Origin: a candidate division FCPU426 bacterium
GTDB taxonomy: Bacteria > Oederibacteriota > Muellerivitia > Muellerivitales > Muellerivitaceae
Reading direction: 5' to 3'
NCBI GenBank assembly: GCA_963771075.1
Contig: CAVYSE010000005.1
Location: forward strand, 32,001 to 96,000
DNA length: 64,000 nucleotides
Shown: piece after piece, positions 40,394-58,382 of the stretch
How positions within the stretch are numbered: position 1 is the first letter of the stretch
How the letters are laid out: each line of letters starts with the position of its first letter
Notes under the pieces: model-generated
What the model was told of the DNA's origin: nothing
The model's database searches: none
Seen by the model: only the letters and a program-made list of their open reading frames with translations
Position numbers and translations under genes: made by a program

Positions 40394-40603
40394 GGAGCGG
40401 CGCAAACCATGGGAGCAGGTCAGGTATTTACTGGAAAATGAATCGTTTATTCTGGGGAGAGTTATTGACCATGACGGGGACCCGTCGTGGACATGGGAAA
40501 TAACTCGTTTTAACCCCGATTAGGACAGAACTTTTACCCCTCCTGTTTCGTCCTATAATTATCCAGGTGTTTGTAGTCTCGTTTTCGGGAAAGAGGTAAA
40601 GCT

Positions 40604-41419: not shown

Positions 41420-41556
41420 GGCCGCAAGTGCGGGAAATCCGGTTACCGATTCCCTTCGGAAAACAATGAAAAAATGGTATTGATTTGTCCGGGATGTGAA
41501 GCTGTTTCAAGAATTGGAACAGGGGATTTTAGCGGGACACATTGGAATTCAGAAAT

Positions 41557-42372: not shown

Positions 42373-42453
42373 GTAGGTTGTCCGCGACGGGGACCCATCG
42401 CGAACATCTAATGTGGGTTGGAGTTATACGATGGGCTATCGTATAATTAAGCT

Positions 42454-42669
42454 ATGAAAGTCACCGCGCTATTACCCGATAAACTAGTACGGGAAGTCCA
42501 AGGTTTTGCCAAAGGCAAAAACCTCACGGAATCGCTCGTCAAAGCATTATCGGAATGGAACCAACAACAAAAAATCAGGGATTTGAATCAACTGGTTCTT
42601 GAGCATCCCCTGGGTTTCTCCAAAACTTTTTCCGCCCCTCGCGTTCGAGCCAAAAACAGAAAATCATGA
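42454..42669 (+). CDS. Putative VapB-type antitoxin
   Basis: Small RHH-like protein (MKVTALLPD.LV); overlaps the PIN toxin start. Confidence 0.75.
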   Translation: MKVTALLPDKLVREVQGFAKGKNLTESLVKALSEWNQQQKIRDLNQLVLEHPLGFSKTFSAPRVRAKNRKS

Positions 42670-43040
42670 TCCTTGTCGATACCTCCATTTGGGTGGAGTT
42701 TCTCAAGGGGCATCAACCCTATTTTGATCAAATGAAACAATTGTTGGAGGAACGCCAAGTCCTTGCGGTCGAACCTGTTTTCGGCGAATTGCTCCAAGGA
42801 GCTAAAGATGACCGTGAAAGGCGGATTCTTCAGGGATTTTGGGAAAATCTTCCCAAAAATAAAATACAGGATGCCTGGGTGAAGGCGGGGGAATTATCCT
42901 CCCGAAAAAAATGGAGTGATCGCGGAATCGGATTGATCGACGTGGTCTTGATTATTTCCTCTCGGGATTCAAACGCAAAGATTTGGTCTTTAGATAAGAA
43001 GTTAAATAGCGTATTGCACAAGAATGAGATTTTTGAATAG
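42666..43040 (+). CDS. PIN-domain (VapC-like) toxin
   Basis: ILVDTSIW, ELLQG, GLID, WSLDK. Confidence 0.88.
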   Translation: MILVDTSIWVEFLKGHQPYFDQMKQLLEERQVLAVEPVFGELLQGAKDDRERRILQGFWENLPKNKIQDAWVKAGELSSRKKWSDRGIGLIDVVLIISSRDSNAKIWSLDKKLNSVLHKNEIFE

Positions 43041-43140
43041 CTTTGCTTGTTTACGATGAGGTCCCATCGTGGACATGAAAAATCATGGATAATGGGCTTG
43101 GTCTCCTTGTTCCACTATCCCAGTGAAAGGTAGTAAATAA

Positions 43141-44754
43141 ATGAAATACCAATGGTTGTTCGCGTTCTTGCTTGCAGTTCCATCCTGGGCCCTTCCCGCC
43201 GACAAGGCATTTGAATTATTTCCTCCGGCCAATAACGCCGCGCCGGAGACCTTTACCAAGGCGGTCCAACCCTTCCCGGCGGAGGGCAAGCCCTGGAAGT
43301 TCGCTCATGGCGCCAAGGTCCAGGTCAAGGTGGATGCCGCGCAGGTTCTGCAAAAGATCACCCCCTATCAATTCGGGTCCAATCTCGCCTGTTGGGATAA
43401 CAAACAATTCGTGAACGACCCGGATTGCCAGGAAAAGGTCAGGCAGGCGGGCATCCGGTTCTGGCGCTGGCCGGGAGGCAGTACCTCGGACAACTACCAT
43501 TGGGATGGCAAGTATGGGGACCATACCAAGGACCATGACGGGGGGAACCCGCCGAATATGAACGAACCCTGGGCCGCCTCCACCGACGATTTCATTTCCT
43601 TCTGCCAGAAGACGAATTCGGAAGCCATCGTGACGGTCAACTACGGCGCAGCCCGTTATGAGAATGTCCGGTACGCGGCCGACCTGGCCGCCCGGTGGGT
43701 GCATTATTTCAACTTCGAGAAGAATTTCAGGGTGCGTTATTGGGAGATTGGCAACGAGAATTTCGGGTCCTGGGAAGAGGGGAACCAGCTGGCAGGCAAA
43801 TCGCAATTGACCGGCGATGTCTATGGCAAGGATTTCCAGGTGATCGCCTCGGCCATGCGAAAAGTGGACCCGGACATCTTTATCGGGGCGGTGGCCGTGG
43901 ACAAGGACAGCGGGGATGATTGGAATGGTTACCACTGGTGGATGAGGGGCCTTCTGCCCCAGCTTCAACGGAAAGCCGATTTCCTGATCTTCCATGAATA
44001 TTTCATATGGCCCTTCGATGGCGCGAAAAACTATACCAATCCCAGCAACCAGGTTCTTCTGTCGAACCTTCACGAGATCCCCGACGCCAAGGCCGCTTTC
44101 GATGACATGGAAGACAAATACGCGCCGACCGAGAAGGGTTTGCCCATCGCCGCGACCGAGTTCAACATGATCAACGGCGATCCCCCCCAGACGATCCAAC
44201 TGTTGAACGGGTTATTTGCGGCGGAAGCCCTGGGGGAGATGATCAAGACGGGTTTCAAAAATTCCAACATCTGGGACCTGAAGAACGGCCTGGATGAGAA
44301 GCTCAAGGGGGACCATGGCTTGCTGGCCTATGGGGACTCCCGGATTCCGGCGGGTACACCCCGGCCGACCTATTACACTTACGCCCTTTATTCCCGGGCT
44401 TTCGGGGACACCCTGGTTTCGGCGGAGAGCGCGGACCCAACGGTAAAGATCTATGCCAGCCGTTTTTCGGGCGGGGAACTGGGTTTGGTCATCGTGAACG
44501 AGAATGACCAGAACCGCACGGCCGTTTTTGACCTGGCGGGGTTCAAGCCCCAGGGAAAACTGATGGGATGGGTCATGACCGGCAAGAATCTTAATGATTT
44601 TCAGGTTTCGTGGAACGGCGAAATGGGACCGGCGGGAGGGGGAGGGCCCTATCCCATCCAGACGATCCCGCCATACCGGGCCGTCTTCAAGACCAATCAA
44701 CCCCTCCAGCTACCCTTGCAAGCCAGGTCGGTTACGGGCCTTATCCTTTATTAG
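43141..44754 (+). CDS. Secreted clan GH-A-type glycoside hydrolase
   Basis: Signal peptide, RWPGGS.SD.YHW, YWEIGNE (acid/base), ATEFN (nucleophile), C-terminal beta domain. Confidence 0.8.
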   Translation: MKYQWLFAFLLAVPSWALPADKAFELFPPANNAAPETFTKAVQPFPAEGKPWKFAHGAKVQVKVDAAQVLQKITPYQFGSNLACWDNKQFVNDPDCQEKVRQAGIRFWRWPGGSTSDNYHWDGKYGDHTKDHDGGNPPNMNEPWAASTDDFISFCQKTNSEAIVTVNYGAARYENVRYAADLAARWVHYFNFEKNFRVRYWEIGNENFGSWEEGNQLAGKSQLTGDVYGKDFQVIASAMRKVDPDIFIGAVAVDKDSGDDWNGYHWWMRGLLPQLQRKADFLIFHEYFIWPFDGAKNYTNPSNQVLLSNLHEIPDAKAAFDDMEDKYAPTEKGLPIAATEFNMINGDPPQTIQLLNGLFAAEALGEMIKTGFKNSNIWDLKNGLDEKLKGDHGLLAYGDSRIPAGTPRPTYYTYALYSRAFGDTLVSAESADPTVKIYASRFSGGELGLVIVNENDQNRTAVFDLAGFKPQGKLMGWVMTGKNLNDFQVSWNGEMGPAGGGGPYPIQTIPPYRAVFKTNQPLQLPLQARSVTGLILY

Positions 44755-44978
44755 GTCGATAAGGTTGGCTTTCGACCGCAGCCGATAGATTAAACAGGTC
44801 TTGGACTGCCAATAAACCTTTTGTTACTTGTCCACGACGGGGACCCGTCGCGGACAGGTAATTCGAACCATGCCAACCCCCTTTTCAGGTCAAAGATTGA
44901 AGAGGTTTTAGATCCCATTGCAGGATTATCGATATAATGATATCATGATATCGTTACCATTCATTTGGGAGGAGACCC

Positions 44979-45230
44979 ATGGCCCAACTCATCGTTAGAA
45001 ATTTAGATGACAGCGTGAAGATGAAGCTGAGCCAAAGGGCCCGGAAGAATGGGCACAGCACGGAGGAAGAAGTACGGGATATCTTGAGAAACGCGGTAGG
45101 AAAAGATAGGGGCCTCGCCCCCATGCCATTGGGCGCCAGGTTTAAGGCGCGGTTTAGCAAGATAGGCCTAACTAGGGAAATCCCCGAATTGCGTGGACAG
45201 CAGGCCCAACCCGCCACCCTTGTCCCATGA
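44979..45230 (+). CDS. FitA-like RHH antitoxin
   Basis: MAQLIVRNLDD...RA..NG.S.EEEVRDIL. Confidence 0.88.
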   Translation: MAQLIVRNLDDSVKMKLSQRARKNGHSTEEEVRDILRNAVGKDRGLAPMPLGARFKARFSKIGLTREIPELRGQQAQPATLVP

Positions 45231-45646
45231 TCCTGCTCGATACAAATGTCCTTTCCGCATTGATGCTTCGGGAACCGGACCCTACGGTCGTTTCATGGCT
45301 GGATCGCCAGTCCGTTGAATCGGTTTGGACAACGACGATCACGGTATTTGAAATTCGGTTTGGCCTCGAGAACCTGGCGGGTGGGAAAAGACGGCGTCAG
45401 CTGGAAGAAATTTTTAACCAAACCCTGGAAATTGATTTGGAAGGCCGAGTCCTGCCATTTGACCTGGCCGCGGCCCGGGCGTCTGCCTCGATCGCGGCCC
45501 AACAAAGAAAAAGTGGGCGTCCGGTTGAGATACGAGATGTCCAGATTGCCGGGATCACTTTGGCCAGCAAGGCTACATTAGCCACCCGCAATATCCGGCA
45601 TTTCCAAGGGCTTGGTATCCATCTGATCGATCCCTGGAAAGCCTAG
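45227..45646 (+). CDS. FitB/VapC PIN toxin
   Basis: ILLDTNVLS, EIRFG, D.QIAGI, LATRN..HF, IDPW. Confidence 0.92.
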   Translation: MILLDTNVLSALMLREPDPTVVSWLDRQSVESVWTTTITVFEIRFGLENLAGGKRRRQLEEIFNQTLEIDLEGRVLPFDLAAARASASIAAQQRKSGRPVEIRDVQIAGITLASKATLATRNIRHFQGLGIHLIDPWKA

Positions 45647-45694
45647 CCTGTCCACGATGGGGACCCGGATTGGTCAAAGAAAGAAGGTTAGACA

Positions 45695-45973
45695 ATGGTA
45701 AATAAAAAGACGGTTGTGATGAAGATAAACATCAAGGCGTTCGGATTGGCTTGTGGTTTGTTGTGGGGTCTGGGAGTTTTAGGCCTGACTTGGTGGGTCA
45801 TCCTTTTCGAGGGGCCAACCCACGACCTGATGTTGCTTGGACACATCTACCGGGGTTATGACATCAGCCCCGCCGGAAGTTTGATTGGGACTGCTTATGG
45901 CCTGGTGGATGGAGGGGTGGGCGGCGTCGTTTTCGCCTGGCTTTATAACCTCCTCTGCGTCAAGTTCAAATGA
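45695..45973 (+). CDS. Small 2-TM membrane protein (holin-like size and topology)
   Basis: KAFGLACGLLWG...YRGY....GSLIG..YG..DG...AWLYN. Confidence 0.7.
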   Translation: MVNKKTVVMKINIKAFGLACGLLWGLGVLGLTWWVILFEGPTHDLMLLGHIYRGYDISPAGSLIGTAYGLVDGGVGGVVFAWLYNLLCVKFK

Positions 45974-46023
45974 TCAGGTGTTGAGGAATAGCTTGTCCAC
46001 GATGGGGACCCTTCGTGGACATC

Positions 46024-48000
46024 GTGCCAGCGAAGGTTTGTAGAGCCAGCAGGTGAGGGAGTAGGCCGAAGAGGGCCAGCCCAAATCCTGACCAGGTAAT
46101 CGCCAGAGAGCCTGGAAGTCAGCCCCCGGCGTAGGACCGAGAGGTTCTGCCCGAAACGGGGTCATAAACCTCATTCAGTGAGGGAACAATCTAGCAGTCC
46201 GCAACATCAAGTGAATCCTGCCGCGTCGTGAATGGGACACCGAAAGGTGCAAGAGGATGCCGAGCCGCGTGTCTACCGGCGAAGGCCACGATCCCGCTGA
46301 AGAATCTGGAGCAAGCGGGGCAAGTCCTCCGGCGTATGGGGAACGGAATGCTGGAAAGGCTTTGCAAGCAACCTGGGAGATCCTACCCGCCAAAAGACTT
46401 GCCGCTATAAGGCTAAAACCGAAAAGGGGCAAGGGCGGGAGGAAGTCGGAGGGGGTCACAATACCTGTGAAGGGTGGACAACAAAACCACCTGGAGGGAA
46501 GGACCCCTGCTTCAACCAAGCAACCTTCAAAAGGGAGGCGCTGGAGCATGCCCCAAAGGGCCAACAACTCCGAAGACAAGGCGCGAACCCTTCAAAGGGC
46601 GCTATACCGAGCGGCCAAGAGGAGCCCAAGCCGGAGATTTCATGTACTGCATGACAGGATGACCCGATGGGATGTCCTGACAGCGGCATGGAAACAGGTG
46701 AAGGCTAATAAAGGCCAAGGAGGAGTGGACGGGGAAACGCTGGAATGGATCGAAGAGAAGGTGGGAATTATTCCATTCCTGAAGGGCATCCAGGAAGAAC
46801 TCAAAGCTGGGAAGTATCTGCCTAAACCTGTGAGACGAGTGGAAATACCCAAGCCTGATGGAAGCAAGAGACCGTTGGGAATCCCGGTAATTCGGGATCG
46901 GGTAGTTCAAGCGGCTTGCCGGAAGGTGGTGGAACCCATCTTTGAGGCGGACTTTCTGGAAGGCTCGTTTGGATTTCGGCCAAAACGCGGAGCCCAGCAG
47001 GCCCACCGGGAGATCAAGAAGTGGATCAATGGCGGGTACAGATGGGTGGTGGATGGAGATATTCGGAAGTATTTCGATTCCATCGACCACGACAAACTGA
47101 TGGTGCTGGTGCGCCAGAGGATCAGTGACCGGAAGGTTTTGAAACTGATCCGAGGGTGGCTGAAGGCGGGTGTGTTTGAGGAAGGAAGGCTTACGCCGAC
47201 TCTCCGAGGGACACCGCAAGGCGGGGTGATCTCACCGCTGTTATCCAATGTTTACCTTCACTTGCTGGACAAGGTTTGGAATAAGAGGCACAGGAAACTG
47301 GGTAGGCTGGTGCGCTACGCCGACGATTTTGTGGTGTTGTGCGGAAGCCAAGCCCATGCGGAAAAGAGCCTGGAAGTCATCAAGGAATTGATGGGACGAC
47401 TAGGGCTTGAACTGCACCCCGAAAAGACACGGCTGGTGGAAATGGGGCCTGGGAAGGAAGGGTTTGACTTCCTTGGGTTCCACTTTCGAGTAGGTATGCC
47501 GGTGGTAGGATTGGGTAAGACCTGTTGCCTGAGCTGGCCGAGCCGGAAGGCCATGAAGAAAATCGCCGAGAAAGTGAAGCAGATGACGGCGGGCCGAGAG
47601 CGGCTCTTATCTCCAATGGAGGATGTAGCGAAGGCTTTGAACCCGGTGTTAAGGGGGTGGGCCAACTATTTCCGAATTGGGGACAGCCAGCCATACTTTT
47701 CCAAGCTTCAATTTTACGTACTCGAAAGGCTGACTTTGTTTCGGAGGCATAAGTACGCCTGGGAAGGACGAACATGGTCGATCGAGGAAGTGAAACGCCT
47801 TGGTTTGAACTGGATTCCAGCTTTTGCCTTGAATGCTGCCGGTTGAAAGGTTGTCGGAAAGCCGTATGATCGAAAAGGTCACGTACGGTTTGATGAGGGG
47901 GCGCTGGAAACGTGGTGATGAGAGCCGGACTGAGGCCCAATCCGAAAGGGTTGGATTCGCCACCGTACTCTAAGGCATACGCGCCAGCGCTCTACTCTGC
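46024..48000 (+). mobile_element. Group II intron, copy 1 (1977 nt)
   Basis: 5' GTGCC; RT ORF; domain V GAAAGCCGTATG...CACGTACGGTTTG; domain VI ending CTACTCTGC. Boundaries set from the three-copy comparison plus the GUG start and branch-A spacing. Confidence 0.92.
46548..47846 (+). CDS. ltrA: Group II intron reverse transcriptase/maturase, no endonuclease domain
   Basis: RPLGIP..RDRVVQ, GFRP, GTPQGGVISPLL.N, RYADD, FDFLGF, LRGWANYF. Start placed at 46548. Confidence 0.95.
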   Translation: MPQRANNSEDKARTLQRALYRAAKRSPSRRFHVLHDRMTRWDVLTAAWKQVKANKGQGGVDGETLEWIEEKVGIIPFLKGIQEELKAGKYLPKPVRRVEIPKPDGSKRPLGIPVIRDRVVQAACRKVVEPIFEADFLEGSFGFRPKRGAQQAHREIKKWINGGYRWVVDGDIRKYFDSIDHDKLMVLVRQRISDRKVLKLIRGWLKAGVFEEGRLTPTLRGTPQGGVISPLLSNVYLHLLDKVWNKRHRKLGRLVRYADDFVVLCGSQAHAEKSLEVIKELMGRLGLELHPEKTRLVEMGPGKEGFDFLGFHFRVGMPVVGLGKTCCLSWPSRKAMKKIAEKVKQMTAGRERLLSPMEDVAKALNPVLRGWANYFRIGDSQPYFSKLQFYVLERLTLFRRHKYAWEGRTWSIEEVKRLGLNWIPAFALNAAG

Positions 48001-48036
48001 ACGAAAAGTCACGCATAAGAGGCAGTTTATGATTAG

Positions 48037-48456
48037 TTGGCCAATTTGAAAAAGATTAAACCCTGGGTGAAATTTTGGTTATTCGCAGGAACTTTATTAT
48101 TTGGTTACGTGTTTTGGGGGTTGGTTGAAGAAGTTGCTTTCAATAATCGATTTTTTATCCCCACTTTGAGTTCTCGGATGGTTCGGTTAACCGGGTTCAT
48201 TCATTTTCGCATAATCGACTTTTGGTGTTCCAATTGTATCTACGTTTTAGACAGTTCTGGCTCCCAAATTAAAGTGATCGTTCCCCAAAAAGTCCAAGAC
48301 GAAGTTCGGAGAACAAATTGGGGAGATTTAAAAAAGAACGGGAAAACAGTATTTGTTGACTTGAATGCAATATCTGGGGGTCTCGGGGATTATTATGTTT
48401 GTACGAGAGTCAATTCGATTAATGTCGTTGATGGAGTTGTTTCAGTAAGCAAATAA
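48037..48456 (+). CDS. Hypothetical cassette protein (N-terminal TM)
   Basis: AT-rich ORF filling the space between intron 1 and the repeat at 48471. Confidence 0.6.
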   Translation: MANLKKIKPWVKFWLFAGTLLFGYVFWGLVEEVAFNNRFFIPTLSSRMVRLTGFIHFRIIDFWCSNCIYVLDSSGSQIKVIVPQKVQDEVRRTNWGDLKKNGKTVFVDLNAISGGLGDYYVCTRVNSINVVDGVVSVSK

Positions 48457-48550
48457 TTCACATGAAGAGCTGTCCACGACGGGGACCCGTCGTGGACGAT
48501 GTTTTTAAGTTTATTACCCAAATTATAAGTTCTTTCAGATTGGATGTTTT

Positions 48551-49936
48551 ATGAAGAACCGATGGCAATGGGCGGTGACGATTGGGGCTGTCCCACTCTA
48601 TTACCTCCTTTCGCTTATTCCTCTTTATCATTACCCTAATTTTACTAATTCCCATGTAGGCAATCCGCCTATTGGATTGTTCGCACTTGGCCCAACACCG
48701 ATCTATAGTGGTTTTGTATTTGTAGAAATCATTTCCATCCTGGTCAATCCTTTAAAGCGATGGAGAACACAAGGGATGGCAGGCAGGGAAAAAATACATC
48801 GAGTTCAGCTTATTTTTATGTTTCTTGCAGCCATGTTTCAGGGATGGGGCACGGGTGAACTTATTAAAACTTTTGGCCCCGATTACACGGTGGAAATATT
48901 TGGAACGACCGGACTAGCCGCTCAAATTATTCTGTGTTCCTGTTTGGTTAACGGCGTCTTGATCTTCTACTTGATCGCTACAAATGTGTCCCTGTATGGT
49001 TTGTTCAATGGTTTTATTCTTTTCCTTTTCGTACGGCCCCTGGTGTCGAAAACTCTGGGTCTCATCGATGGAATCCAAACGGACTTACGCTTGCCCGTTG
49101 ACCTTCACTTTTCTAATTTTGATGAAAAAATGAATTTTATATATTTCTTTTTCGTCCTTGTAGGCGTGGGGTTTGTTCTGTACCAAAAACGAAAGAAAAT
49201 ATTAGAACTTATTTATCATTATGTGCTTCGTAACCCATTGGTTGGCTATCAAACAAAAGAAAAATTGTATCAAGTGAAAACTTCGCCCGTTCCTCAAACG
49301 TTAACGGGTGGTTTGGGTGTTTTGGTGCTGATTCTACAAATGGTTTTGTACCAACATGGCGCTTTTTCGGATAACGGGACTTTGCGAAATGTGCTATGGG
49401 TCGGGGCGGATATGATTGATCTGGGTGTGACATCTTTTTTACTTTGGCTTTTATTTACCAACACCTACTGGGTCGATCATCATCTGGAAGGACGGGCGTC
49501 TTGGCTTCCTGAACGGGACAAATTGAAGCCTTATTTTATTTTTTGGCTTGTGATGTCCGCTTTCGCAGTATTAATAAATGAGTCACCATTGTTTTTCCAT
49601 TTTTCATTAACTATTGAAAAATTGAGCCGTATTTTTCTTGAGCCTATTTTCATCCTGACGACGGTCATTTTAGGGATAGAAATTTACGAAAAATGGCAAT
49701 TCGAGCAAAGGTCGATTCAAAAAGTATGCCTGGCCGAAATGGATAATGTGGAATTGGTCCAGCTTTGGGTGGCCCAACTTGAAGAGGCGAATCTTTCCTT
49801 TCATGTGGAGGGCCTTCGTTATAGGCAACTTACGCAATTCTTTGCGCCTTATTTGAAAATGAGGCTGTTTGTGGATGAAAGTCAGGCCCAGGACGCGGTA
49901 AGCATCATTCGTTTAGAAGAAGTTAAGCAAATATAA
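48551..49936 (+). CDS. Polytopic membrane protein with SecY-like N-terminal half and DUF2007-like C-terminus
   Basis: GLFALGPTPIYSG..., G..GR.KI, A.FQG, YGLFNG resemble SecY TM2-TM5 motifs. Confidence 0.6.
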   Translation: MKNRWQWAVTIGAVPLYYLLSLIPLYHYPNFTNSHVGNPPIGLFALGPTPIYSGFVFVEIISILVNPLKRWRTQGMAGREKIHRVQLIFMFLAAMFQGWGTGELIKTFGPDYTVEIFGTTGLAAQIILCSCLVNGVLIFYLIATNVSLYGLFNGFILFLFVRPLVSKTLGLIDGIQTDLRLPVDLHFSNFDEKMNFIYFFFVLVGVGFVLYQKRKKILELIYHYVLRNPLVGYQTKEKLYQVKTSPVPQTLTGGLGVLVLILQMVLYQHGAFSDNGTLRNVLWVGADMIDLGVTSFLLWLLFTNTYWVDHHLEGRASWLPERDKLKPYFIFWLVMSAFAVLINESPLFFHFSLTIEKLSRIFLEPIFILTTVILGIEIYEKWQFEQRSIQKVCLAEMDNVELVQLWVAQLEEANLSFHVEGLRYRQLTQFFAPYLKMRLFVDESQAQDAVSIIRLEEVKQI

Positions 49937-50057
49937 TGTGGGAGTTCGCTGTCCACGATGGGGACCCGTCGTGGACAAGCTTTAGTCACAAGGCCAAGAT
50001 GAAAATTCAAAATGGGTGATTATTGAAAACTGAGAAGGTGGAAAGAAGCTTAACCCA

Positions 50058-50558
50058 ATGGAAAATTCTTACAATTTAGAAAAAACTATTTGGTCAGAAG
50101 CCGACTTTGAAAAAATGTGTTGGCATGATGTTCATGTCCATGGAATTTCGTTTGGGCCAATGTCGGAAGAAAACGGAACGGCCGATTTTTTATTTGATAT
50201 TGATTACCTCTTTGAATGGATAAAACCCATTGCGCCTGAAATTTTCTATAGCTTTTGGATAGCCCCATGCACTCTCGTTTTTGAAAACGCGTATGACTTT
50301 AAAATGCAAATAGAAGACAAAATAGGTTTTGCTTTCGGTCCCTTTGTAATAGAAGATTTTTCAATGGCTGAGAACCTGGAACGGGATGGCGTTCATTACG
50401 GTTACCGTTGGAAAATCAAACTTAGAACCGGGTGGATAGAATTGAAATCCTACGGATTAAAACAATACGTTCGCCAAAAACCGAGAGTGGGTGGCCAATG
50501 GTTGTTATTTGAAGAACGGGCCGGTGTGAATTATCAAAAAAAATATTCCGGGTCGTAA
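50058..50558 (+). CDS. Hypothetical cassette protein
   Basis: AT-rich ORF between the repeats at 49950 and 50563. Confidence 0.75.
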   Translation: MENSYNLEKTIWSEADFEKMCWHDVHVHGISFGPMSEENGTADFLFDIDYLFEWIKPIAPEIFYSFWIAPCTLVFENAYDFKMQIEDKIGFAFGPFVIEDFSMAENLERDGVHYGYRWKIKLRTGWIELKSYGLKQYVRQKPRVGGQWLLFEERAGVNYQKKYSGS

Positions 50559-50592
50559 GGGTTGTCCACGATGGGGACCCATCGTGGACATC

Positions 50593-52569
50593 GTGCCAGC
50601 GAAGGTTTGTAGAGCCAGCAGGTGAGGGAGTAGGCCGAAGAGGGCCAGCCCAAATCCTGACCAGGTAATCGCCAGAGAGCCTGGAAGTCAGCCCCCGGCG
50701 TAGGACCGAGAGGTTCTGCCCGAAACGGGGTCATAAACCTCATTCAGTGAGGGAACAATCTAGCAGTCCGCAACATCAAGTGAATCCTGCCGCGTCGTGA
50801 ATGGGACACCGAAAGGTGCAAGAGGATGCCGAGCCGCGTGTCTACCGGCGAAGGCCACGATCCCGCTGAAGAATCTGGAGCAAGCGGGGCAAGTCCTCCG
50901 GCGTATGGGGAACGGAATGCTGGAAAGGCTTTGCAAGCAACCTGGGAGATCCTACCCGCCAAAAGACTTGCCGCTATAAGGCTAAAACCGAAAAGGGGCA
51001 AGGGCGGGAGGAAGTCGGAGGGGGTCACAATACCTGTGAAGGGTGGACAACAAAACCACCTGGAGGGAAGGACCCCTGCTTCAACCAAGCAACCTTCAAA
51101 AGGGAGGCGCTGGAGCATGCCCCAAAGGGCCAACAACTCCGAAGACAAGGCGCGAACCCTTCAAAGGGCGCTATACCGAGCGGCCAAGAGGAGCCCAAGC
51201 CGGAGATTTCATGTACTGCATGACAGGATGACCCGATGGGATGTCCTGACAGCGGCATGGAAACAGGTGAAGGCTAATAAAGGCCAAGGAGGAGTGGACG
51301 GGGAAACGCTGGAATGGATCGAAGAGAAGGTGGGAATTATTCCATTCCTGAAGGGCATCCAGGAAGAACTCAAAGCTGGGAAGTATCTGCCTAAACCTGT
51401 GAGACGAGTGGAAATACCCAAGCCTGATGGAAGCAAGAGACCGTTGGGAATCCCGGTAATTCGGGATCGGGTAGTTCAAGCGGCTTGCCGGAAGGTGGTG
51501 GAACCCATCTTTGAGGCGGACTTTCTGGAAGGCTCGTTTGGATTTCGGCCAAAACGCGGAGCCCAGCAGGCCCACCGGGAGATCAAGAAGTGGATCAATG
51601 GCGGGTACAGATGGGTGGTGGATGGAGATATTCGGAAGTATTTCGATTCCATCGACCACGACAAACTGATGGTGCTGGTGCGCCAGAGGATCAGTGACCG
51701 GAAGGTTTTGAAACTGATCCGAGGGTGGCTGAAGGCGGGTGTGTTTGAGGAAGGAAGGCTTACGCCGACTCTCCGAGGGACACCGCAAGGCGGGGTGATC
51801 TCACCGCTGTTATCCAATGTTTACCTTCACTTGCTGGACAAGGTTTGGAATAAGAGGCACAGGAAACTGGGTAGGCTGGTGCGCTACGCCGACGATTTTG
51901 TGGTGTTGTGCGGAAGCCAAGCCCATGCGGAAAAGAGCCTGGAAGTCATCAAGGAATTGATGGGACGACTAGGGCTTGAACTGCACCCCGAAAAGACACG
52001 GCTGGTGGAAATGGGGCCTGGGAAGGAAGGGTTTGACTTCCTTGGGTTCCACTTTCGAGTAGGTATGCCGGTGGTAGGATTGGGTAAGACCTGTTGCCTG
52101 AGCTGGCCGAGCCGGAAGGCCATGAAGAAAATCGCCGAGAAAGTGAAGCAGATGACGGCGGGCCGAGAGCGGCTCTTATCTCCAATGGAGGATGTAGCGA
52201 AGGCTTTGAACCCGGTGTTAAGGGGGTGGGCCAACTATTTCCGAATTGGGGACAGCCAGCCATACTTTTCCAAGCTTCAATTTTACGTACTCGAAAGGCT
52301 GACTTTGTTTCGGAGGCATAAGTACGCCTGGGAAGGACGAACATGGTCGATCGAGGAAGTGAAACGCCTTGGTTTGAACTGGATTCCAGCTTTTGCCTTG
52401 AATGCTGCCGGTTGAAAGGTTGTCGGAAAGCCGTATGATCGAAAAGGTCACGTACGGTTTGATGAGGGGGCGCTGGAAACGTGGTGATGAGAGCCGGACT
52501 GAGGCCCAATCCGAAAGGGTTGGATTCGCCACCGTACTCTAAGGCATACGCGCCAGCGCTCTACTCTGC
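50593..52569 (+). mobile_element. Group II intron, copy 2
   Basis: Same sequence as copy 1 by inspection (offset 4569); same encoded protein. Confidence 0.92.
51117..52415 (+). CDS. ltrA: Group II intron RT/maturase
   Basis: Translation identical to copy 1. Confidence 0.95.
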   Translation: MPQRANNSEDKARTLQRALYRAAKRSPSRRFHVLHDRMTRWDVLTAAWKQVKANKGQGGVDGETLEWIEEKVGIIPFLKGIQEELKAGKYLPKPVRRVEIPKPDGSKRPLGIPVIRDRVVQAACRKVVEPIFEADFLEGSFGFRPKRGAQQAHREIKKWINGGYRWVVDGDIRKYFDSIDHDKLMVLVRQRISDRKVLKLIRGWLKAGVFEEGRLTPTLRGTPQGGVISPLLSNVYLHLLDKVWNKRHRKLGRLVRYADDFVVLCGSQAHAEKSLEVIKELMGRLGLELHPEKTRLVEMGPGKEGFDFLGFHFRVGMPVVGLGKTCCLSWPSRKAMKKIAEKVKQMTAGRERLLSPMEDVAKALNPVLRGWANYFRIGDSQPYFSKLQFYVLERLTLFRRHKYAWEGRTWSIEEVKRLGLNWIPAFALNAAG

Positions 52570-52610
52570 ATGAAAAGTACCAATGGAGCGTCTGATAGGG
52601 TGAGGTATTA

Positions 52611-53588
52611 ATGGGATTTTTTGAAGAATTCAAAAAACTGCTGTGGCTCTACAACCCCCTTAAAAAATCTGGAAGGCCTGGGGAGATTAAGAGCCGAGGC
52701 ATCAACGGAGCTGTTTTTTGCCCCATTTACAACCATTGGATTTCCAACCTTGAGTGTTTAGAAACGAGCGGGGAGCGCGGCTCCTACGACGAAATTGACA
52801 AACCCGATTTAAATCATTTGGAAACCGGCTACAACGATATTCATAACGCGACTAAACGTAGCGGGCATAAATTCCCCCAAGACATTAAAAAAGTGGTCAT
52901 TACCTGTGAGTATTGTGAAGCCTACTGCCTCGGCCAGGAAAATGGACCTCTAGTAGTCCCTCCCATTGACAGTATCGATCGAAAGAAATTGTTGTTCGAT
53001 TTATATGACGAAAGTAAAAGATATTCAAAAGACACCATTGACCCAACGGAATTGGAGAAGATTAAAAAGGCAGCCATGGAACTGAGCGAAAAAGCCGGAA
53101 AATACTTGGCCGAACATCTGAACCTTGAAAAAGAAATACGCGAAATAACAGTCGAATTCGAAGCGCAAGAAACTGGAAAAACGGGTTTTTGGATCATTCT
53201 TTTTGGCCTCGTTTTTGCTGTCGCCGGATTCGGGAATCTTTGGAATGTCAACTGGTTCGCTCATAAAGCCTTTCAGGGGAAAGGGGCTGTTTTGTCGGTA
53301 GAGAAAAAAGAAGCGACCGACAGTGGCAAATGGATTGCCCGGGTCCGATATACCCCTCGGAATTACCCAGAAGTCGTCGCTGAGCTTGAAGTTGAAAAAC
53401 CTTATGAAACAAATCAATTGGTAGAATTTCTTTATGACCCACAAAACCCCAATAAGCTACGGCCCGCCAGCTGGTCAAAAAAAAGTCCGCTGACCAATTT
53501 CTTTTTGGCGATAATTGGCATTGTTGTCATCGGGTTCGGCTGGAGCAAATTAAAAGTTGCCAGGCCTTTTTATCCGAAAAGGGGTTAA
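52611..53588 (+). CDS. Hypothetical membrane protein with DUF3592-like C-terminus
   Basis: TM-beta-YDPQNP-TM layout; RBS GAGG. Confidence 0.65.
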   Translation: MGFFEEFKKLLWLYNPLKKSGRPGEIKSRGINGAVFCPIYNHWISNLECLETSGERGSYDEIDKPDLNHLETGYNDIHNATKRSGHKFPQDIKKVVITCEYCEAYCLGQENGPLVVPPIDSIDRKKLLFDLYDESKRYSKDTIDPTELEKIKKAAMELSEKAGKYLAEHLNLEKEIREITVEFEAQETGKTGFWIILFGLVFAVAGFGNLWNVNWFAHKAFQGKGAVLSVEKKEATDSGKWIARVRYTPRNYPEVVAELEVEKPYETNQLVEFLYDPQNPNKLRPASWSKKSPLTNFFLAIIGIVVIGFGWSKLKVARPFYPKRG

Positions 53589-53612
53589 AAGGTTGCTATG
53601 AGGCCATTCCTC

Positions 53613-53802
53613 AAGTTCAATTAAGCCCACCCGTCAGCCTTTTGGTTTCGCGGATTCACGCTGCTATTCGTGCTCGAGGCACAAGTTAAAAATTCGATAA
53701 TCCAGTAGGGAAGCCACCAGCTGTCCATCGTGCCTTACGGCACCACCAAATTCCGTGGTCATTCCAAAGGGATCGAATCACAAAACCGAGGCTGAAACCT
53801 CT
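53613..53802 (-). ncRNA. Candidate seek/bridge RNA of the IS1111-type element
   Basis: Two similar hairpin units 60 nt apart, each next to a 7-mer: one matches the target repeat, the other the predicted circle junction. Confidence 0.65.
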
Positions 53803-54873
53803 TTAGCGCATGGGCCGATACACTTCCTTCCGAACCAACATCGTCCAAAGGTGAATCAAAAGCTTGTGCGCCATTGCCACAATCGCCTTGTTGACGTGTC
53901 CCGTATTACGGACCAGTCGACGAAAAACACGGTAGGCCTGGGTATCCTTTTGGATCCATGACCAGGCCGCTTCAACCAAGGTCGCTCTCAAAGTGCCTTT
54001 TCCGGCCTTCTGTAAATGGCCTTCCTTCCGGGTTTCACCGCTTTGCCTGATCCTAGGGGCCAACCCCACGTAAGCCGCCACTTGTTTGGCGTTTTCAAAG
54101 CGTTCCGGCTGGTAAATCTCCGTTAATACTTGCAGGGTCGTCACTTCGCCCACTCCTGGGTGGGTTCTCAGGATCTTGGCCTTTTTCTCGTAGGCCTTCT
54201 CCTTCATCATGACCCTCAAACGTATGTTCACGTCCTTGAGCTGCCTATCAAAGTAAAAAAGATCTTCCAATAGGCGATCCAAGGTGAACCTCAGGGCAGG
54301 TGGCAGTTCCATTTCCCGTAATATCCCAATGGCTTCGTGGGTCCAGTAATCCAACCCTCTGGGAGTTTTGAGCCCATATTGAAGGAAGAAGCTCTTGATC
54401 CTTTGTTTGGCCTTGCGTTTCTGCTCGACCATCGCGTTCCTCAAACGAACCACCTGCCGGTCAGCTTCTTCCTGGAGGGTTGGGATCGCCACCGCCTTCA
54501 GCAATTCTTTCTCCGCATACTCCGCCAGTTTGCTACAGTCCAAACGGTCGGATTTTGTTTCAAACTGCGACACGCGAGGAGTCTTGTGCGGGGCGATGAC
54601 ATCCAATGGGTATCCCTCCTCCCGAAGGCGGCGGGCCAGGCCAAAACCGGTAGGGCCTGCCTCGTAGACGACCTTTTTCAACCCCACCCGATAAGGCGCC
54701 AGGACCTTCACCACCGCCTCCCAGTCCGCTGTCAGGGACTTTGTTCCGACTTCCTTTCCGTTAATCCTGATTGCCATATAAATACTTCGTTTGTGGACAT
54801 CCAATCCCACAAACACAGCGTCCCGCTTGGATACCTCCTTGCCTCGGTATCCTTTTTTGCTAATCTGTTTCAT
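53803..54873 (-). CDS. IS110-family DEDD transposase/recombinase
   Basis: VGLDVHK, YEAG, KSDRLD, PGVG, YVGL.P...QSG, A..A.A.KL. Confidence 0.95.
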   Translation of the reverse strand: MKQISKKGYRGKEVSKRDAVFVGLDVHKRSIYMAIRINGKEVGTKSLTADWEAVVKVLAPYRVGLKKVVYEAGPTGFGLARRLREEGYPLDVIAPHKTPRVSQFETKSDRLDCSKLAEYAEKELLKAVAIPTLQEEADRQVVRLRNAMVEQKRKAKQRIKSFFLQYGLKTPRGLDYWTHEAIGILREMELPPALRFTLDRLLEDLFYFDRQLKDVNIRLRVMMKEKAYEKKAKILRTHPGVGEVTTLQVLTEIYQPERFENAKQVAAYVGLAPRIRQSGETRKEGHLQKAGKGTLRATLVEAAWSWIQKDTQAYRVFRRLVRNTGHVNKAIVAMAHKLLIHLWTMLVRKEVYRPMR

Positions 54874-55059
54874 GGCCATTCCTCCTTGTGAGTTGCCTGC
54901 TCACCGGGACTAGTTTAATCCCGGCGGAGGAATGGCCTTCATGTTACCTGTCCACGACGGGGACCCGTCGTGGACACCTAATTCTGACGTGGCTTTGGAT
55001 AAACCTCTTTGCTTTAGTCATGGGTGATAAGGACTGAATTTTAGGACGAAAGGAAAACC

Positions 55060-55644
55060 ATGAAAACCGTTCTTGTTATTTTAGCATTGATCGTTTTGGT
55101 TTTTTTCTTTTGGAAGTTCAAATCCCGGCGTCTTTTTGACCCGGAAGCCCTCATGCCGGGTTACGCACAGAAGGCCATCTCGACCGCCAAGGAAAAGTAT
55201 GGCCTCACTTTGGATCTGGACGAAAAAAACTTGAAAGTTCTTGAGATGAAAATTATGAGGCCGCTAAGTGAAGAGTTTAAGAAAAAAGCCTTATCGGACG
55301 AAGAACTTGCGAACAATTGCATTCTTTGGGGGGCTTATCTGGGGGAAATGTTAAAGAAGGCTTCGCCCTACTGGTCTCAGGCCCATTGGAGATTAAATGA
55401 TTCAGAAAAAGGCCAACAAACAATTAATCCAAACCAGATTGGTTTGGCGGGAAAGGATTTTGTGGTTTATCCCGGTGCTTGGGTTCAAAAACATATCGAA
55501 GACCCTATAAACGATAATTTCGTGGGAAAGTATGAATTAGCTTATCAACTGCCAAACACGGATCAGAATAAAAAGGGCACTCAGGGTCAGCTGATAGATA
55601 AAGATGGGAACCCTATCAAAATGCGATATATGCCTGAAAAGTAA
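55060..55644 (+). CDS. Hypothetical cassette protein (N-terminal TM; GAYLGE motif)
   Basis: RBS AAGGA; fills the interval between the repeats at 54949 and 55663. Confidence 0.75.
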   Translation: MKTVLVILALIVLVFFFWKFKSRRLFDPEALMPGYAQKAISTAKEKYGLTLDLDEKNLKVLEMKIMRPLSEEFKKKALSDEELANNCILWGAYLGEMLKKASPYWSQAHWRLNDSEKGQQTINPNQIGLAGKDFVVYPGAWVQKHIEDPINDNFVGKYELAYQLPNTDQNKKGTQGQLIDKDGNPIKMRYMPEK

Positions 55645-55692
55645 TAGATTGTTTGGTGAAGTTGTCCACGACGGGGACCCATCGTGGACGTC

Positions 55693-57669
55693 GTGCCAGC
55701 GAAGGTTTGTAGAGCCAGCAGGTGAGGGAGTAGGCCGAAGAGGGCCAGCCCAAATCCTGACCAGGTAATCGCCAGAGAGCCTGGAAGTCAGCCCCCGGCG
55801 TAGGACCGAGAGGTTCTGCCCGAAACGGGGTCATAAACCTCATTCAGTGAGGGAACAATCTAGCAGTCCGCAACATCAAGTGAATCCTGCCGCGTCGTGA
55901 ATGGGACACCGAAAGGTGCAAGAGGATGCCGAGCCGCGTGTCTACCGGCGAAGGCCACGATCCCGCTGAAGAATCTGGAGCAAGCGGGGCAAGTCCTCCG
56001 GCGTATGGGGAACGGAATGCTGGAAAGGCTTTGCAAGCAACCTGGGAGATCCTACCCGCCAAAAGACTTGCCGCTATAAGGCTAAAACCGAAAAGGGGCA
56101 AGGGCGGGAGGAAGTCGGAGGGGGTCACAATACCTGTGAAGGGTGGACAACAAAACCACCTGGAGGGAAGGACCCCTGCTTCAACCAAGCAACCTTCAAA
56201 AGGGAGGCGCTGGAGCATGCCCCAAAGGGCCAACAACTCCGAAGACAAGGCGCGAACCCTTCAAAGGGCGCTATACCGAGCGGCCAAGAGGAGCCCAAGC
56301 CGGAGATTTCATGTACTGCATGACAGGATGACCCGATGGGATGTCCTGACAGCGGCATGGAAACAGGTGAAGGCTAATAAAGGCCAAGGAGGAGTGGACG
56401 GGGAAACGCTGGAATGGATCGAAGAGAAGGTGGGAATTATTCCATTCCTGAAGGGCATCCAGGAAGAACTCAAAGCTGGGAAGTATCTGCCTAAACCTGT
56501 GAGACGAGTGGAAATACCCAAGCCTGATGGAAGCAAGAGACCGTTGGGAATCCCGGTAATTCGGGATCGGGTAGTTCAAGCGGCTTGCCGGAAGGTGGTG
56601 GAACCCATCTTTGAGGCGGACTTTCTGGAAGGCTCGTTTGGATTTCGGCCAAAACGCGGAGCCCAGCAGGCCCACCGGGAGATCAAGAAGTGGATCAATG
56701 GCGGGTACAGATGGGTGGTGGATGGAGATATTCGGAAGTATTTCGATTCCATCGACCACGACAAACTGATGGTGCTGGTGCGCCAGAGGATCAGTGACCG
56801 GAAGGTTTTGAAACTGATCCGAGGGTGGCTGAAGGCGGGTGTGTTTGAGGAAGGAAGGCTTACGCCGACTCTCCGAGGGACACCGCAAGGCGGGGTGATC
56901 TCACCGCTGTTATCCAATGTTTACCTTCACTTGCTGGACAAGGTTTGGAATAAGAGGCACAGGAAACTGGGTAGGCTGGTGCGCTACGCCGACGATTTTG
57001 TGGTGTTGTGCGGAAGCCAAGCCCATGCGGAAAAGAGCCTGGAAGTCATCAAGGAATTGATGGGACGACTAGGGCTTGAACTGCACCCCGAAAAGACACG
57101 GCTGGTGGAAATGGGGCCTGGGAAGGAAGGGTTTGACTTCCTTGGGTTCCACTTTCGAGTAGGTATGCCGGTGGTAGGATTGGGTAAGACCTGTTGCCTG
57201 AGCTGGCCGAGCCGGAAGGCCATGAAGAAAATCGCCGAGAAAGTGAAGCAGATGACGGCGGGCCGAGAGCGGCTCTTATCTCCAATGGAGGATGTAGCGA
57301 AGGCTTTGAACCCGGTGTTAAGGGGGTGGGCCAACTATTTCCGAATTGGGGACAGCCAGCCATACTTTTCCAAGCTTCAATTTTACGTACTCGAAAGGCT
57401 GACTTTGTTTCGGAGGCATAAGTACGCCTGGGAAGGACGAACATGGTCGATCGAGGAAGTGAAACGCCTTGGTTTGAACTGGATTCCAGCTTTTGCCTTG
57501 AATGCTGCCGGTTGAAAGGTTGTCGGAAAGCCGTATGATCGAAAAGGTCACGTACGGTTTGATGAGGGGGCGCTGGAAACGTGGTGATGAGAGCCGGACT
57601 GAGGCCCAATCCGAAAGGGTTGGATTCGCCACCGTACTCTAAGGCATACGCGCCAGCGCTCTACTCTGC
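55693..57669 (+). mobile_element. Group II intron, copy 3
   Basis: Same sequence as copy 1 by inspection (offset 9669). Confidence 0.92.
56217..57515 (+). CDS. ltrA: Group II intron RT/maturase
   Basis: Translation identical to copy 1. Confidence 0.95.
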   Translation: MPQRANNSEDKARTLQRALYRAAKRSPSRRFHVLHDRMTRWDVLTAAWKQVKANKGQGGVDGETLEWIEEKVGIIPFLKGIQEELKAGKYLPKPVRRVEIPKPDGSKRPLGIPVIRDRVVQAACRKVVEPIFEADFLEGSFGFRPKRGAQQAHREIKKWINGGYRWVVDGDIRKYFDSIDHDKLMVLVRQRISDRKVLKLIRGWLKAGVFEEGRLTPTLRGTPQGGVISPLLSNVYLHLLDKVWNKRHRKLGRLVRYADDFVVLCGSQAHAEKSLEVIKELMGRLGLELHPEKTRLVEMGPGKEGFDFLGFHFRVGMPVVGLGKTCCLSWPSRKAMKKIAEKVKQMTAGRERLLSPMEDVAKALNPVLRGWANYFRIGDSQPYFSKLQFYVLERLTLFRRHKYAWEGRTWSIEEVKRLGLNWIPAFALNAAG

Positions 57670-57695
57670 ACCTTTTTTAGTGTTAAGGAGGTTTA

Positions 57696-58313
57696 ATGGT
57701 AGCCCAATTTCCCGATATTACCTTTGAAGGTCCGCTCATATCAGATCAAAATTTTCTAAACGCTCTCCCTGAGGATTTAAAATCAATTCTCAAAATAAAA
57801 AATGGTTTTATCGCTTTTGCCGGTGGATTTCACATGAGAGGGATTTGCGAAGAACCTAGTTGGCATTCGTGAGAACTGTTTTGGACCGGTAAGCATTCCT
57901 TTTCGAAATTGTATTCTTCTATTCAAAAAGACGATGTACCTTTTGGACAAGATTGCTTGGGTGATCAGTTTATTTTAAGAAAGAACCAAGTATTACGTCT
58001 TAGGGGTGAATCGGGAGACATTGTAGATATGAAAATGGATTTATTAACTTTCTTGGATGAAGCTGAATCAAATCCTTTTGATTTATTAGAACTAGCTCCT
58101 TTGAAGCGAATTCAAAACGAAGGAAAAAAACTGGAGCCCGGCCAATTAATTAATGTGTTTCCTCCCTTTATTACCGCAGAGAGCCGTAAAGGCGTTTCAT
58201 TGAAGCCAATACCAACCGTCGAAAGAATCTTGTTTCTTTCCGATCTTGCTAAACAAATTTCCAATATTTCTGACGGTACACAAGTTAAATTCAATATAAG
58301 CTCTAAGGGGTAG
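57696..58313 (+). pseudogene. SMI1/KNR4-like immunity-type cassette gene with a premature stop
   Basis: RBS AAGGAGG and ATG at 57696 in frame with the 57909 ORF; TGA at 57870-57872; LP.D, NGF, PFGQDC.GDQF. Confidence 0.65.
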
Positions 58314-58382
58314 TTTGAGGGCTTAGCGATTGTCCACGATGGGGACCCATCGTGAACAAGGGAATTATGAGGTTTGTAATAA

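What the first reader, a model, noticed from the sequence alone, without database searches (positions are those of the whole stretch)
53594..54976. IS1111-type IS110 inserted into the palindrome edge, with readable target and donor guides in its non-coding region
Seen: junctions are AAAAGGT-TG|CTATGAGG... and ...CATGTTACC|TG-TCCACG. Removing the IS and one TG restores AAAAGGTTGTCCACGACGGGG, matching other sites (e.g. AAGGGTTGTCCACG before 50563). The predicted circle junction is GTTACC-TG-CTATGAG. The non-coding region has two parallel units exactly 60 nt apart: CTGTCCA (53721-53727; TGTCCA matches the repeat arm) beside hairpin GTGCC-TTAC-GGCAC, and CTGCTAT (53661-53667; matches the circle junction) beside hairpin GTGC-TCGAG-GCAC. 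Known: IS110/IS1111 recombinases use bridge/seek RNAs with target- and donor-binding loops, and some IS1111 members target attC or REP sites. Inference: a natural guide RNA programmed against this repeat, with a CA/TG core.
Basis: partly seen in the sequence, partly recalled or inferred. Interest (0 to 1): 0.82.

Follow-up and report, generated by a model that had tools for sequence, protein, structure and literature searches.

The report
Bridge-RNA insertion sequence targeting cassette palindromes
This is an intact jumping gene whose tail encodes a predicted two-loop guide RNA; the RNA's four guide stretches track the element's own ends and its landing sites across relatives, and it lands at the edge of a 28-base palindrome that separates rows of accessory genes, so it is a clear new example of a known RNA-guided recombinase aimed at an unusual target.

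Summary
The IS (53595-54949, 1355 bp, two identical copies in the genome) has IS1111-type ends and a structured RNA downstream of the transposase. Across 14-15 related elements, the three variable guides match their own junctions far better than others' (permutation p<=1e-4); the fourth and its site are invariant. The bases after each 7-mer track the opposite partner, like IS621 handshake guides (p=8e-4, 6e-5). The core is CT on the + strand, not TG/CA; this element's targets carry TT or CT. The 60-nt spacing is not conserved (58-68). Eight of 9 mapped junctions of this IS and a 92% sister touch the palindrome, which stays intact. The palindrome bounds co-oriented cassette arrays beside a short serine recombinase, a system this scan already reported on other DNA. 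Verdict: new member of a known kind. The RNA itself, the circle and activity are not shown experimentally.

The parts
53595..54949 (-). IS110-family element with IS1111-type ends, 1355 bp (donor core included)
   Evidence: Second identical copy at G000:C9 with different flanks; 7-nt left and 3-nt right extensions beyond the sub-terminal repeats
53803..54873 (-). DEDD recombinase, 356 aa from the second ATG (the ORF finder starts at 54879, 358 aa); D27, E73, D111, D114, S280 in 358-aa numbering
   Evidence: Pfam DEDD_Tnp_IS110 + Transposase_20; NCBIfam NF033542 243 bits vs cut-off 140; the four acidic residues invariant and S280 nearly invariant in 46 homologues; ribosome-binding-site spacing favours the second ATG (inference)
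53633..53796 (-). Predicted bridge RNA (limits approximate)
   Evidence: Folds; 10 of 16 consensus pairs have compensatory changes, 0 of 500 shuffles as high; no Rfam match
53745..53753 (-).
   Evidence: Own-junction match 6.39 of 8 vs 3.03 cross, n=15, p=1e-5 (labelled RTG there); 4 of 4 left flanks of this IS end in GG
53730..53743 (-). Hairpin inside the target-binding loop
   Evidence: Helix 2, 83.8% of cells paired
53721..53727 (-).
   Evidence: Own 3.87 of 6 vs 2.14 cross, n=14, p=1e-5 (labelled LTG there)
53719..53720 (-). Target-loop handshake dinucleotide (CU here; canonical would be GU)
   Evidence: First base matches donor position 7 in 12 of 14 elements, p=6e-5; this element is one of the two exceptions; second base invariant with donor position 6 in 14 of 14
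53709..53765 (-). Stem closing the target-binding loop (arms 53755-53765 and 53709-53717)
   Evidence: Helix 1: 6 of 8 pairs with changes on both sides, 93.4% paired
53684..53691 (-).
   Evidence: Own 4.79 of 7 vs 3.85 cross, n=14, p=1e-4 (labelled RDG there)
53670..53682 (-). Hairpin inside the donor-binding loop
   Evidence: Helix 3, 100% paired
53661..53667 (-).
   Evidence: Invariant in 17 of 17 elements together with the invariant element end; conserved, so covariation cannot be tested
53659..53660 (-). Donor-loop handshake dinucleotide
   Evidence: First base matches target position 7 in 10.67 of 16 elements vs 4.36 expected, p=8e-4
53593..53594 (+). Target-derived core (TT) at the left junction
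54948..54949 (+). Donor-derived core (CT) at the right junction; its T is also base 1 of the palindrome
53598..53612 (.). Right sub-terminal inverted repeat
   Evidence: 12-bp perfect match to the left repeat
54927..54942 (.). Left sub-terminal inverted repeat; also complementary to the ribosome-binding site at 54874-54885
   Evidence: 10 or more perfect bp in 11 of 14 lineages
53609..53614 (-). Predicted -35 box of the circle-junction promoter
   Evidence: 17 nt from the -10 box once the ends are joined
54941..54946 (-). Predicted -10 box of the circle-junction promoter
   Evidence: TAnnnT in 12 of 14 lineages at 17-nt spacing
54949..54976 (+). 28-bp palindrome (target repeat; likely cassette recombination site), intact after the insertion
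   Evidence: 87 copies at up to 5 mismatches in the genome, co-oriented in arrays; found in 25 of 30 family genomes

Best explanation
This is a mobile IS110-family element with IS1111-type ends whose 3' non-coding region likely yields a two-loop bridge RNA that would guide the DEDD recombinase to join the element's circular form to the outer edge of the host's 28-bp palindrome. Shown by sequence: the ends, two copies at the palindrome edge, four guide segments, the two handshake dinucleotides and their covariation with junctions in relatives. Inferred from IS621 and ISEc11 work: (1) the element excises as a circle whose junction forms a sigma-70 promoter; (2) that promoter drives the transposase and the RNA; (3) read on the + strand the geometry is that of IS621 - left guide, hairpin, right guide plus CT core, handshake bases - in both loops; (4) strand exchange just 3' of the core leaves the target core on the left and the donor core on the right, as seen; (5) a U in the left guide and a G in the right guide would let the target core be TT or CT through wobble pairs. 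The palindrome stays whole and the upstream gene is not hit, so the insertion is likely harmless and could ride with the cassette. The palindrome's hairpin possibly adds specificity beyond the guide (inferred, about even odds).
For: Guide-junction permutation tests: p=1e-5, 1e-5 and 1e-4, still p<=7e-4 after dropping two close relatives; mismatched controls p=0.64 and 0.41. Handshake tests p=8e-4 and 6e-5, with cognate controls p=0.90 and 0.42; these are the positions named for IS621 in PMC11208158 (passages). Stems covary. Homologue L020 holds two elements in tandem and shows the right-end/left-end join directly. The 92% sister in G027 shares the right-target guide and the palindrome target but has a different left-target guide and correspondingly different left flanks. 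Near-identical copies in other samples add two left flanks that fit the guide and two right junctions at repeats, one at a site that is empty in G000.
Against: No small RNA, circle or activity was observed. RNA-run contigs cover the region but also the transposase and a flank, so they show no discrete RNA, and no circle joint was listed. In this element the left-target guide matches only 4-5 of 8 bases at the two genome copies. Its target-loop handshake base fits the target instead of the donor, a setting that blocks recombination in IS621. One of five G027 copies is not at a repeat. Relatives are not independent, the sample is 14-17 elements, and most have one known insertion. The left-target test took the best of three registers (for own and cross pairs alike).
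Confidence: 0.88

Rival explanations
1. Seek-RNA-only model: only the target loop acts, as a short processed RNA, while the protein recognises the ends through the sub-terminal repeats; the second unit is a relic of a loop duplication.
For: For ISEc11 the 82-nt short RNA sufficed for movement (PMC11187229, results read). The two units are near copies. The right-donor guide is invariant, so it shows no covariation. The left-donor signal is the weakest and is co-inherited with the end.
Against: The base after the donor 7-mer tracks the host target (p=8e-4; p=0.005 without close relatives), which inheritance cannot explain. The left-donor guide changes with the left end. The donor-loop hairpin is 100% paired.
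Confidence: 0.1
2. On the sub-question of why the palindrome is chosen: the guide alone picks sites, and the excess at palindromes comes from selection removing insertions in genes, with no structural gate.
For: Among non-coding plus repeat sites, 13 of 25 matches to GG-core-right target are at repeats, so 4 of 4 has P=0.07. One G027 copy sits off-repeat at a site with a strong left-guide match.
Against: Genome-wide only 7-12% of the shorter guide-matching motifs are at repeats (97 of 1361, 13 of 140, 6 of 48; 2 of 8 for the longest). Eight of 9 at repeats has P=0.001-0.026 even with coding DNA excluded (G000 background applied to G027 sites). A target stem-loop raises ISPpu10 insertion (10.64898/2026.03.19.712850, abstract and one section).
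Confidence: 0.45
3. Targeting is protein- or structure-based, and the RNA-to-junction matches are chance.
For: Each match is short (5-7 nt); a single target 6-mer appears in 8% of shuffles.
Against: Both motifs together appear in 0.055% of shuffles, and the guides change with the junctions in relatives that have unrelated targets.
Confidence: 0.02

Closest known systems
IS621 and its bridge RNA (PMC11208160 passages; PMC11208158 passages; PMC13626964 passages; PDB 8wt6 matched)
   Same: DEDD plus serine recombinase, CT core, four guides in two loops, handshake bases tracking position 7 of the opposite partner, junction promoter, repeat palindrome as target.
   Different: The RNA lies downstream of the gene rather than in the left end; sub-terminal repeats are long; the core reads CT on the strand opposite the gene; each loop holds a short hairpin; the natural target core is often TT against a CT donor core.
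IS1111 family seekRNA elements ISEc11, ISPa11 (REP target), ISKpn4 (attC target) (PMC11187229, results and passages read)
   Same: Sub-terminal repeats with 7-nt and 3-nt extensions, downstream non-coding region, top-strand match 5' of bottom-strand match, GL-P----SG motif, junction promoter, insertion at a folded host repeat.
   Different: The transposase falls outside the tight IS5708/ISShdy1 clade and is 356 aa. The target is a non-attC 28-bp palindrome. A donor loop with handshake bases is readable here.
ISSso6 / ISEc45 / ISCARN28 / ISAzs32 lineage
   Same: Shared YEAGP motif; ISSso6 and ISEc45 are the best named plasmid hits (about 29% identity); ISSso6 has a downstream region and sub-terminal repeats. 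ISCARN28 and ISAzs32 have predicted bridge RNAs in PMC11208160 (legend only) and are listed beside ISSso6 in the source data of PMC11187229.
   Different: Our 18-row clade is separate (100/98) and joins them only on an unsupported fork (88/79). The figure with their RNA structures could not be seen.
ISPpu10 (bioRxiv 10.64898/2026.03.19.712850, abstract and one section)
   Same: Bridge-RNA element with a CT core inserting beside a GC-rich stem-loop; left guide tolerant and right guide strict, as the junctions here suggest.
   Different: There the structural gate is tested and lies on the left-target side; here it is inferred and the palindrome is on the right-target side.

Membership tests
IS110 family | DEDD RuvC-like domain plus Tnp20 domain with catalytic serine | tested here: met
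IS110 family | Mobile unit with precise ends at several sites | tested here: met
   2 identical copies with different flanks; 4 more junctions in other samples
IS110 family | Circular intermediate with a junction promoter | tested here: inconclusive
   Promoter boxes at 17-nt spacing, and the end-to-end join in tandem homologue L020; no circle joint in 4 runs of contigs
IS1111 group | Sub-terminal inverted repeats with 7-nt left and 3-nt right extensions | tested here: met
   rule from PMC11187229
IS1111 group | Long non-coding region downstream of the transposase | tested here: met
   About 208 nt downstream vs 76 nt upstream
IS1111 group | Top-strand target match 5' of bottom-strand match; GL-P----SG motif | tested here: met
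   criteria
IS1111 group | Transposase in the tight IS1111 clade | tested here: not met
   34-row tree: IS5708, ISShdy1 and one unnamed element form a distant clade (100/100, branch 2.36); ours is elsewhere. Only 3 such references, midpoint root, L033 dropped for frameshifts
Bridge RNA (IS621 type) | Target loop with two guides that change with the target | tested here: met
Bridge RNA (IS621 type) | Donor loop with two guides matching the circle junction | tested here: met
   Left-donor guide covaries, right-donor guide invariant
Bridge RNA (IS621 type) | CT core and handshake dinucleotides | tested here: met
   at family level; this element deviates at the first target-loop handshake base
Bridge RNA (IS621 type) | RNA is made, binds the recombinase and is required and reprogrammable | not testable with these tools
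   Metatranscriptome contigs cover the region but cannot show a discrete RNA
IS1111-attC group | Target is an integron attC site | tested here: not met
   The site is a 28-bp palindrome without attC-type ends by inspection; no integron integrase over the cut-off in 31 of 31 family genomes searched
REP/RAYT system (for the target repeat) | Repeats flank a Y1 tyrosine transposase | tested here: not met
   0 of 18 Y1 loci examined (of 20 found) had the repeat within 600 bp

The most novel reading that the evidence does not exclude
This element is an RNA-guided parasite of an undescribed, integrase-free cassette system run by a short serine recombinase, the counterpart of the IS1111-attC group for integrons. 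It finds the cassette site by guide pairing plus recognition of the 28-bp hairpin, and it works with unequal target and donor cores. Its clade also shows that elements with IS1111-type ends and a downstream RNA use the full IS621 two-loop handshake chemistry, so the 'reversed' seekRNA order is the IS621 geometry read on the other strand.
Probability: 0.4. Interest if true: 0.65.

Novelty: new member of a known kind. Interest (0 to 1): 0.42.

Why it matters
It is a compact (356 aa plus about 160 nt), fully readable bridge system, and it comes with a natural series of retargeted relatives, including a 92%-identical pair that differ in one guide. That makes three open points directly testable: whether IS1111-type elements need a donor loop and handshake bases (bridge versus seek model), whether unequal target and donor cores are tolerated in nature, and whether a target hairpin gates insertion. 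It is also independent support that the 28-bp palindrome is a stable, long-lived site, since an IS and a group II intron both settle beside it without breaking it.

Tried and rejected
TG/CA core: rejected, because the base after the core differs between the junctions in most relatives. My first labelling of guides on the transposase strand was replaced by IS621 numbering on the + strand, so RTG/LTG/RDG are left-target, right-target and left-donor here. Exact 60-nt spacing as a feature: rejected (58-68). Second donor-loop handshake base vs target position 6: not significant (7 of 16, p=0.14). The first helix count had helix 2 out of register and was redone. The whole-region fold is not unusual on its own (z=-1.56); an outer stem enclosing both loops appears in per-sequence folds but was not tested for covariation. 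Repeat as a REP with a Y1 transposase, as attC with an integron integrase, or as the site of the Xer-like gene on C6: not supported. A pattern scan of viral contigs gave 0 hits; a phylum search gave the element in 5 of 99 genomes. Sequencing contigs listed no circle joint, which shows nothing about absence. Rows left out of the tests: L020 (tandem), L021 (contig end) and L001 (damaged end) from the left-target test; L020 and L001 from the target-side handshake tests; elements lacking a left end from the donor tests; L031 and L033 were not aligned. A literature search for an internal inverted repeat in IS1111 gave nothing relevant; my memory that one was described is recalled and unchecked.

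Full report
Observation. The two motifs occur together in 0.055% of 20,000 dinucleotide shuffles. The ORF on the minus strand is an IS110-family DEDD recombinase with the four acidic residues invariant and the serine nearly invariant in 46 homologues. The genome holds two identical copies, on C5 and C9, with different flanks. Both abut the outer 5' edge of a 28-bp palindrome.

Ends. The element has sub-terminal inverted repeats with a 12-bp perfect core, 7 nt from the left end and 3 nt from the right. This is the IS1111 rule given in PMC11187229 (passages), and it sets the element at 53595-54949. Joining the ends brings a -35 and a -10 box to 17-nt spacing; the -10 box has the TAnnnT form in 12 of 14 lineages with both ends. 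Homologue L020 carries two elements in tandem and shows the right-end/left-end join directly. In a 34-row tree the transposase sits in its own 18-row clade, away from the tight IS5708/ISShdy1 clade and only loosely near ISSso6 and ISEc45. It is therefore IS1111-type by architecture, and not shown to be so by phylogeny.

The RNA. I gathered relatives with flanks from genome and metagenome collections and aligned 17 non-coding regions. Three helices hold: 92.6% of cells pair, 10 of 16 pairs change on both sides, and 0 of 500 shuffles or any slid register reach this (relatedness can inflate such counts). Matching each element's guide to its own junction against all others gave, for the left target, 6.39 vs 3.03 of 8 (n=15, p=1e-5); for the right target, 3.87 vs 2.14 of 6 (n=14, p=1e-5); and for the left donor, 4.79 vs 3.85 of 7 (n=14, p=1e-4). 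Crossed controls were flat (p=0.64 and 0.41), and dropping two close relatives kept p<=7e-4 (where the labels follow the other strand). The right-donor guide and the right end are both invariant.

Core and handshake. Written on the + strand, the donor reads left donor, CT, right donor in 13 of 14 lineages with a left end (TT in L026), and most targets also carry CT. The next base of the donor loop matches target position 7 (10.67 of 16 vs 4.36 expected, p=8e-4). The next base of the target loop matches donor position 7 (12 of 14, p=6e-5). The cognate controls are flat. These are the handshake positions described for IS621 in PMC11208158 (passages). The apparent TG duplication here is the second core base plus a G that happens to start both right halves. 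In this element the target core is TT in three junctions and CT in one, the left guide has U at the first core position, and the left junction keeps the target core while the right keeps the donor core. That fits exchange 3' of the core as reported for IS621; the wobble explanation is my inference. Against the model: this element's target-loop handshake base fits the target, a setting that blocked IS621 recombination. No difference at that base was listed in the three runs that cover it, so it is unlikely to be an assembly error, and the element still occupies several sites.

Target choice. For this IS, 4 of 4 right-side junctions are at the palindrome: two in the genome and one each in runs X16 and X4. 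The X4 flank matches a site on C3 that is empty in G000, though the contig appears three bases shorter there. All 4 left flanks end in GG, against 13 of 120 palindrome half-sites with the fitting flank. The 92% sister in G027 is at the palindrome in 4 of 5 copies, at either arm, and has a different left guide with matching flanks. More distant relatives have other guides and other targets. The guide reads only five bases of the arm, and just 7-12% of the shorter guide-matching motifs in the genome are repeats. With coding DNA excluded the excess shrinks (P=0.001-0.026 for 8 of 9; P=0.014-0.07 for 4 of 4). A hairpin gate like that of ISPpu10 (abstract and one section) is plausible but not separated from selection.

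The target repeat. It has 87 copies at up to 5 mismatches and is found in 25 of 30 family genomes and 1 of 30 others. Copies are co-oriented between short, often low-GC genes, including pairs that look like toxin-antitoxin modules by inspection. No integron integrase passes the cut-off in 31 genomes. All 4 Recombinase-domain hits in the genome end about 15 bp from a variant site at an array end. Of 18 loci of that recombinase family, 8 have a site 8-34 nt after the stop, all short forms, and none of the 5 long forms do. I reached this reading before consulting earlier notes; the scan had reported the same system on other DNA. My searches found no paper on it. The IS lands a few bases after the stop codon of the upstream gene and leaves the 28-bp site whole.

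Expression. Two metatranscriptome runs hold contigs over the non-coding region and the gene; in one run they continue into flanking DNA. Contigs cannot show a small RNA, its ends or its strand.

Verdict. The finding is real, and it is a well-supported new member of the bridge/seek RNA-guided IS110 family. The unusual points are the target, the readable handshake bases in an element with IS1111-type ends, and the unequal cores. Searches showed no paper that demonstrates handshake bases in an IS1111-type element, but figures and two scanned supplements were not visible. Papers seen: PMC11208160 (passages, supplement list and rows), PMC11187229 (two parts of the text, passages, supplement rows), PMC11208158, PMC13626964 and PMC13604230 (passages), 10.64898/2026.03.19.712850 (abstract, one section).

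Noticed in passing
window 40465-58358, sites such as 44829, 45649, 45994, 48471, 49950, 50563, 54949, 55663, 58331: Array of short co-oriented genes each followed by the 28-bp palindrome. Arm variants travel with the DNA on their own side, which suggests exchange in the centre of the site.
   Followed up: partly
G000:C8:80002-80835 (whole); C6:158383-158925, C8:42236-42736, C28:107699-107977 (5'-truncated): Short 277-aa serine recombinase ending about 15 bp from a variant site at the array end; candidate cassette recombinase. A match was found in only 9 of 31 family genomes with this query.
   Followed up: partly
window about 46024-48000, 50593-52569, 55693-57669: Three near-identical group II introns start 2 nt after the 3' arm of the same palindrome; about 9 near-full copies in the genome.
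   Followed up: partly
window 54874-54885 with 54926-54937: The left sub-terminal repeat pairs with the transposase ribosome-binding site (10 or more bp in 11 of 14 lineages, with compensatory changes): a likely translation brake.
   Followed up: partly
L001-L004 (G027), right ends: All four full copies of the sister IS carry a tandem 17-bp duplication of the right end (damaged in L001), which would break the junction promoter spacing, yet the outer end is the one used.
   Followed up: no
L020:126 and L020:1590: Tandem dimer of a related IS showing the end-to-end junction.
   Followed up: yes
G000:C6:114183-115232: Xer-like tyrosine recombinase with a perfect 13-6-13 inverted repeat just upstream: a likely dif-type site, unrelated to the cassette repeat.
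   Followed up: no
G000, Y1 transposase loci such as C6:1580, C3:342571, C21:77113: Multi-copy elements of about 1 kb with a Y1 (HUH) transposase of about 310 aa, bounded by short terminal inverted repeats.
   Followed up: no
G000:C21:10618-11640 and six other places: A second IS110 (340 aa, 27% identical to this one) in 7 copies; its target was not studied.
   Followed up: no
G000:C9:1-1848, C21:996-2852, C3, C13, C5:95637-95990: A recurrent segment of about 1.9 kb ends right at the 5' arm of the palindrome in five places; the C9 copy of the IS sits between it and the site.
   Followed up: no
G000:C3:345074-346390; L119, L133, L137: The same 438-452 aa gene (HflX-like by inspection, not scanned) lies beside the repeats in four genomes.
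   Followed up: no
L100, L104, L106 (G024); L022, L025: Related IS elements aim at other short repeats: a GAATT-rich tandem motif in G024, and one shared palindrome-like motif in L022 and L025.
   Followed up: no
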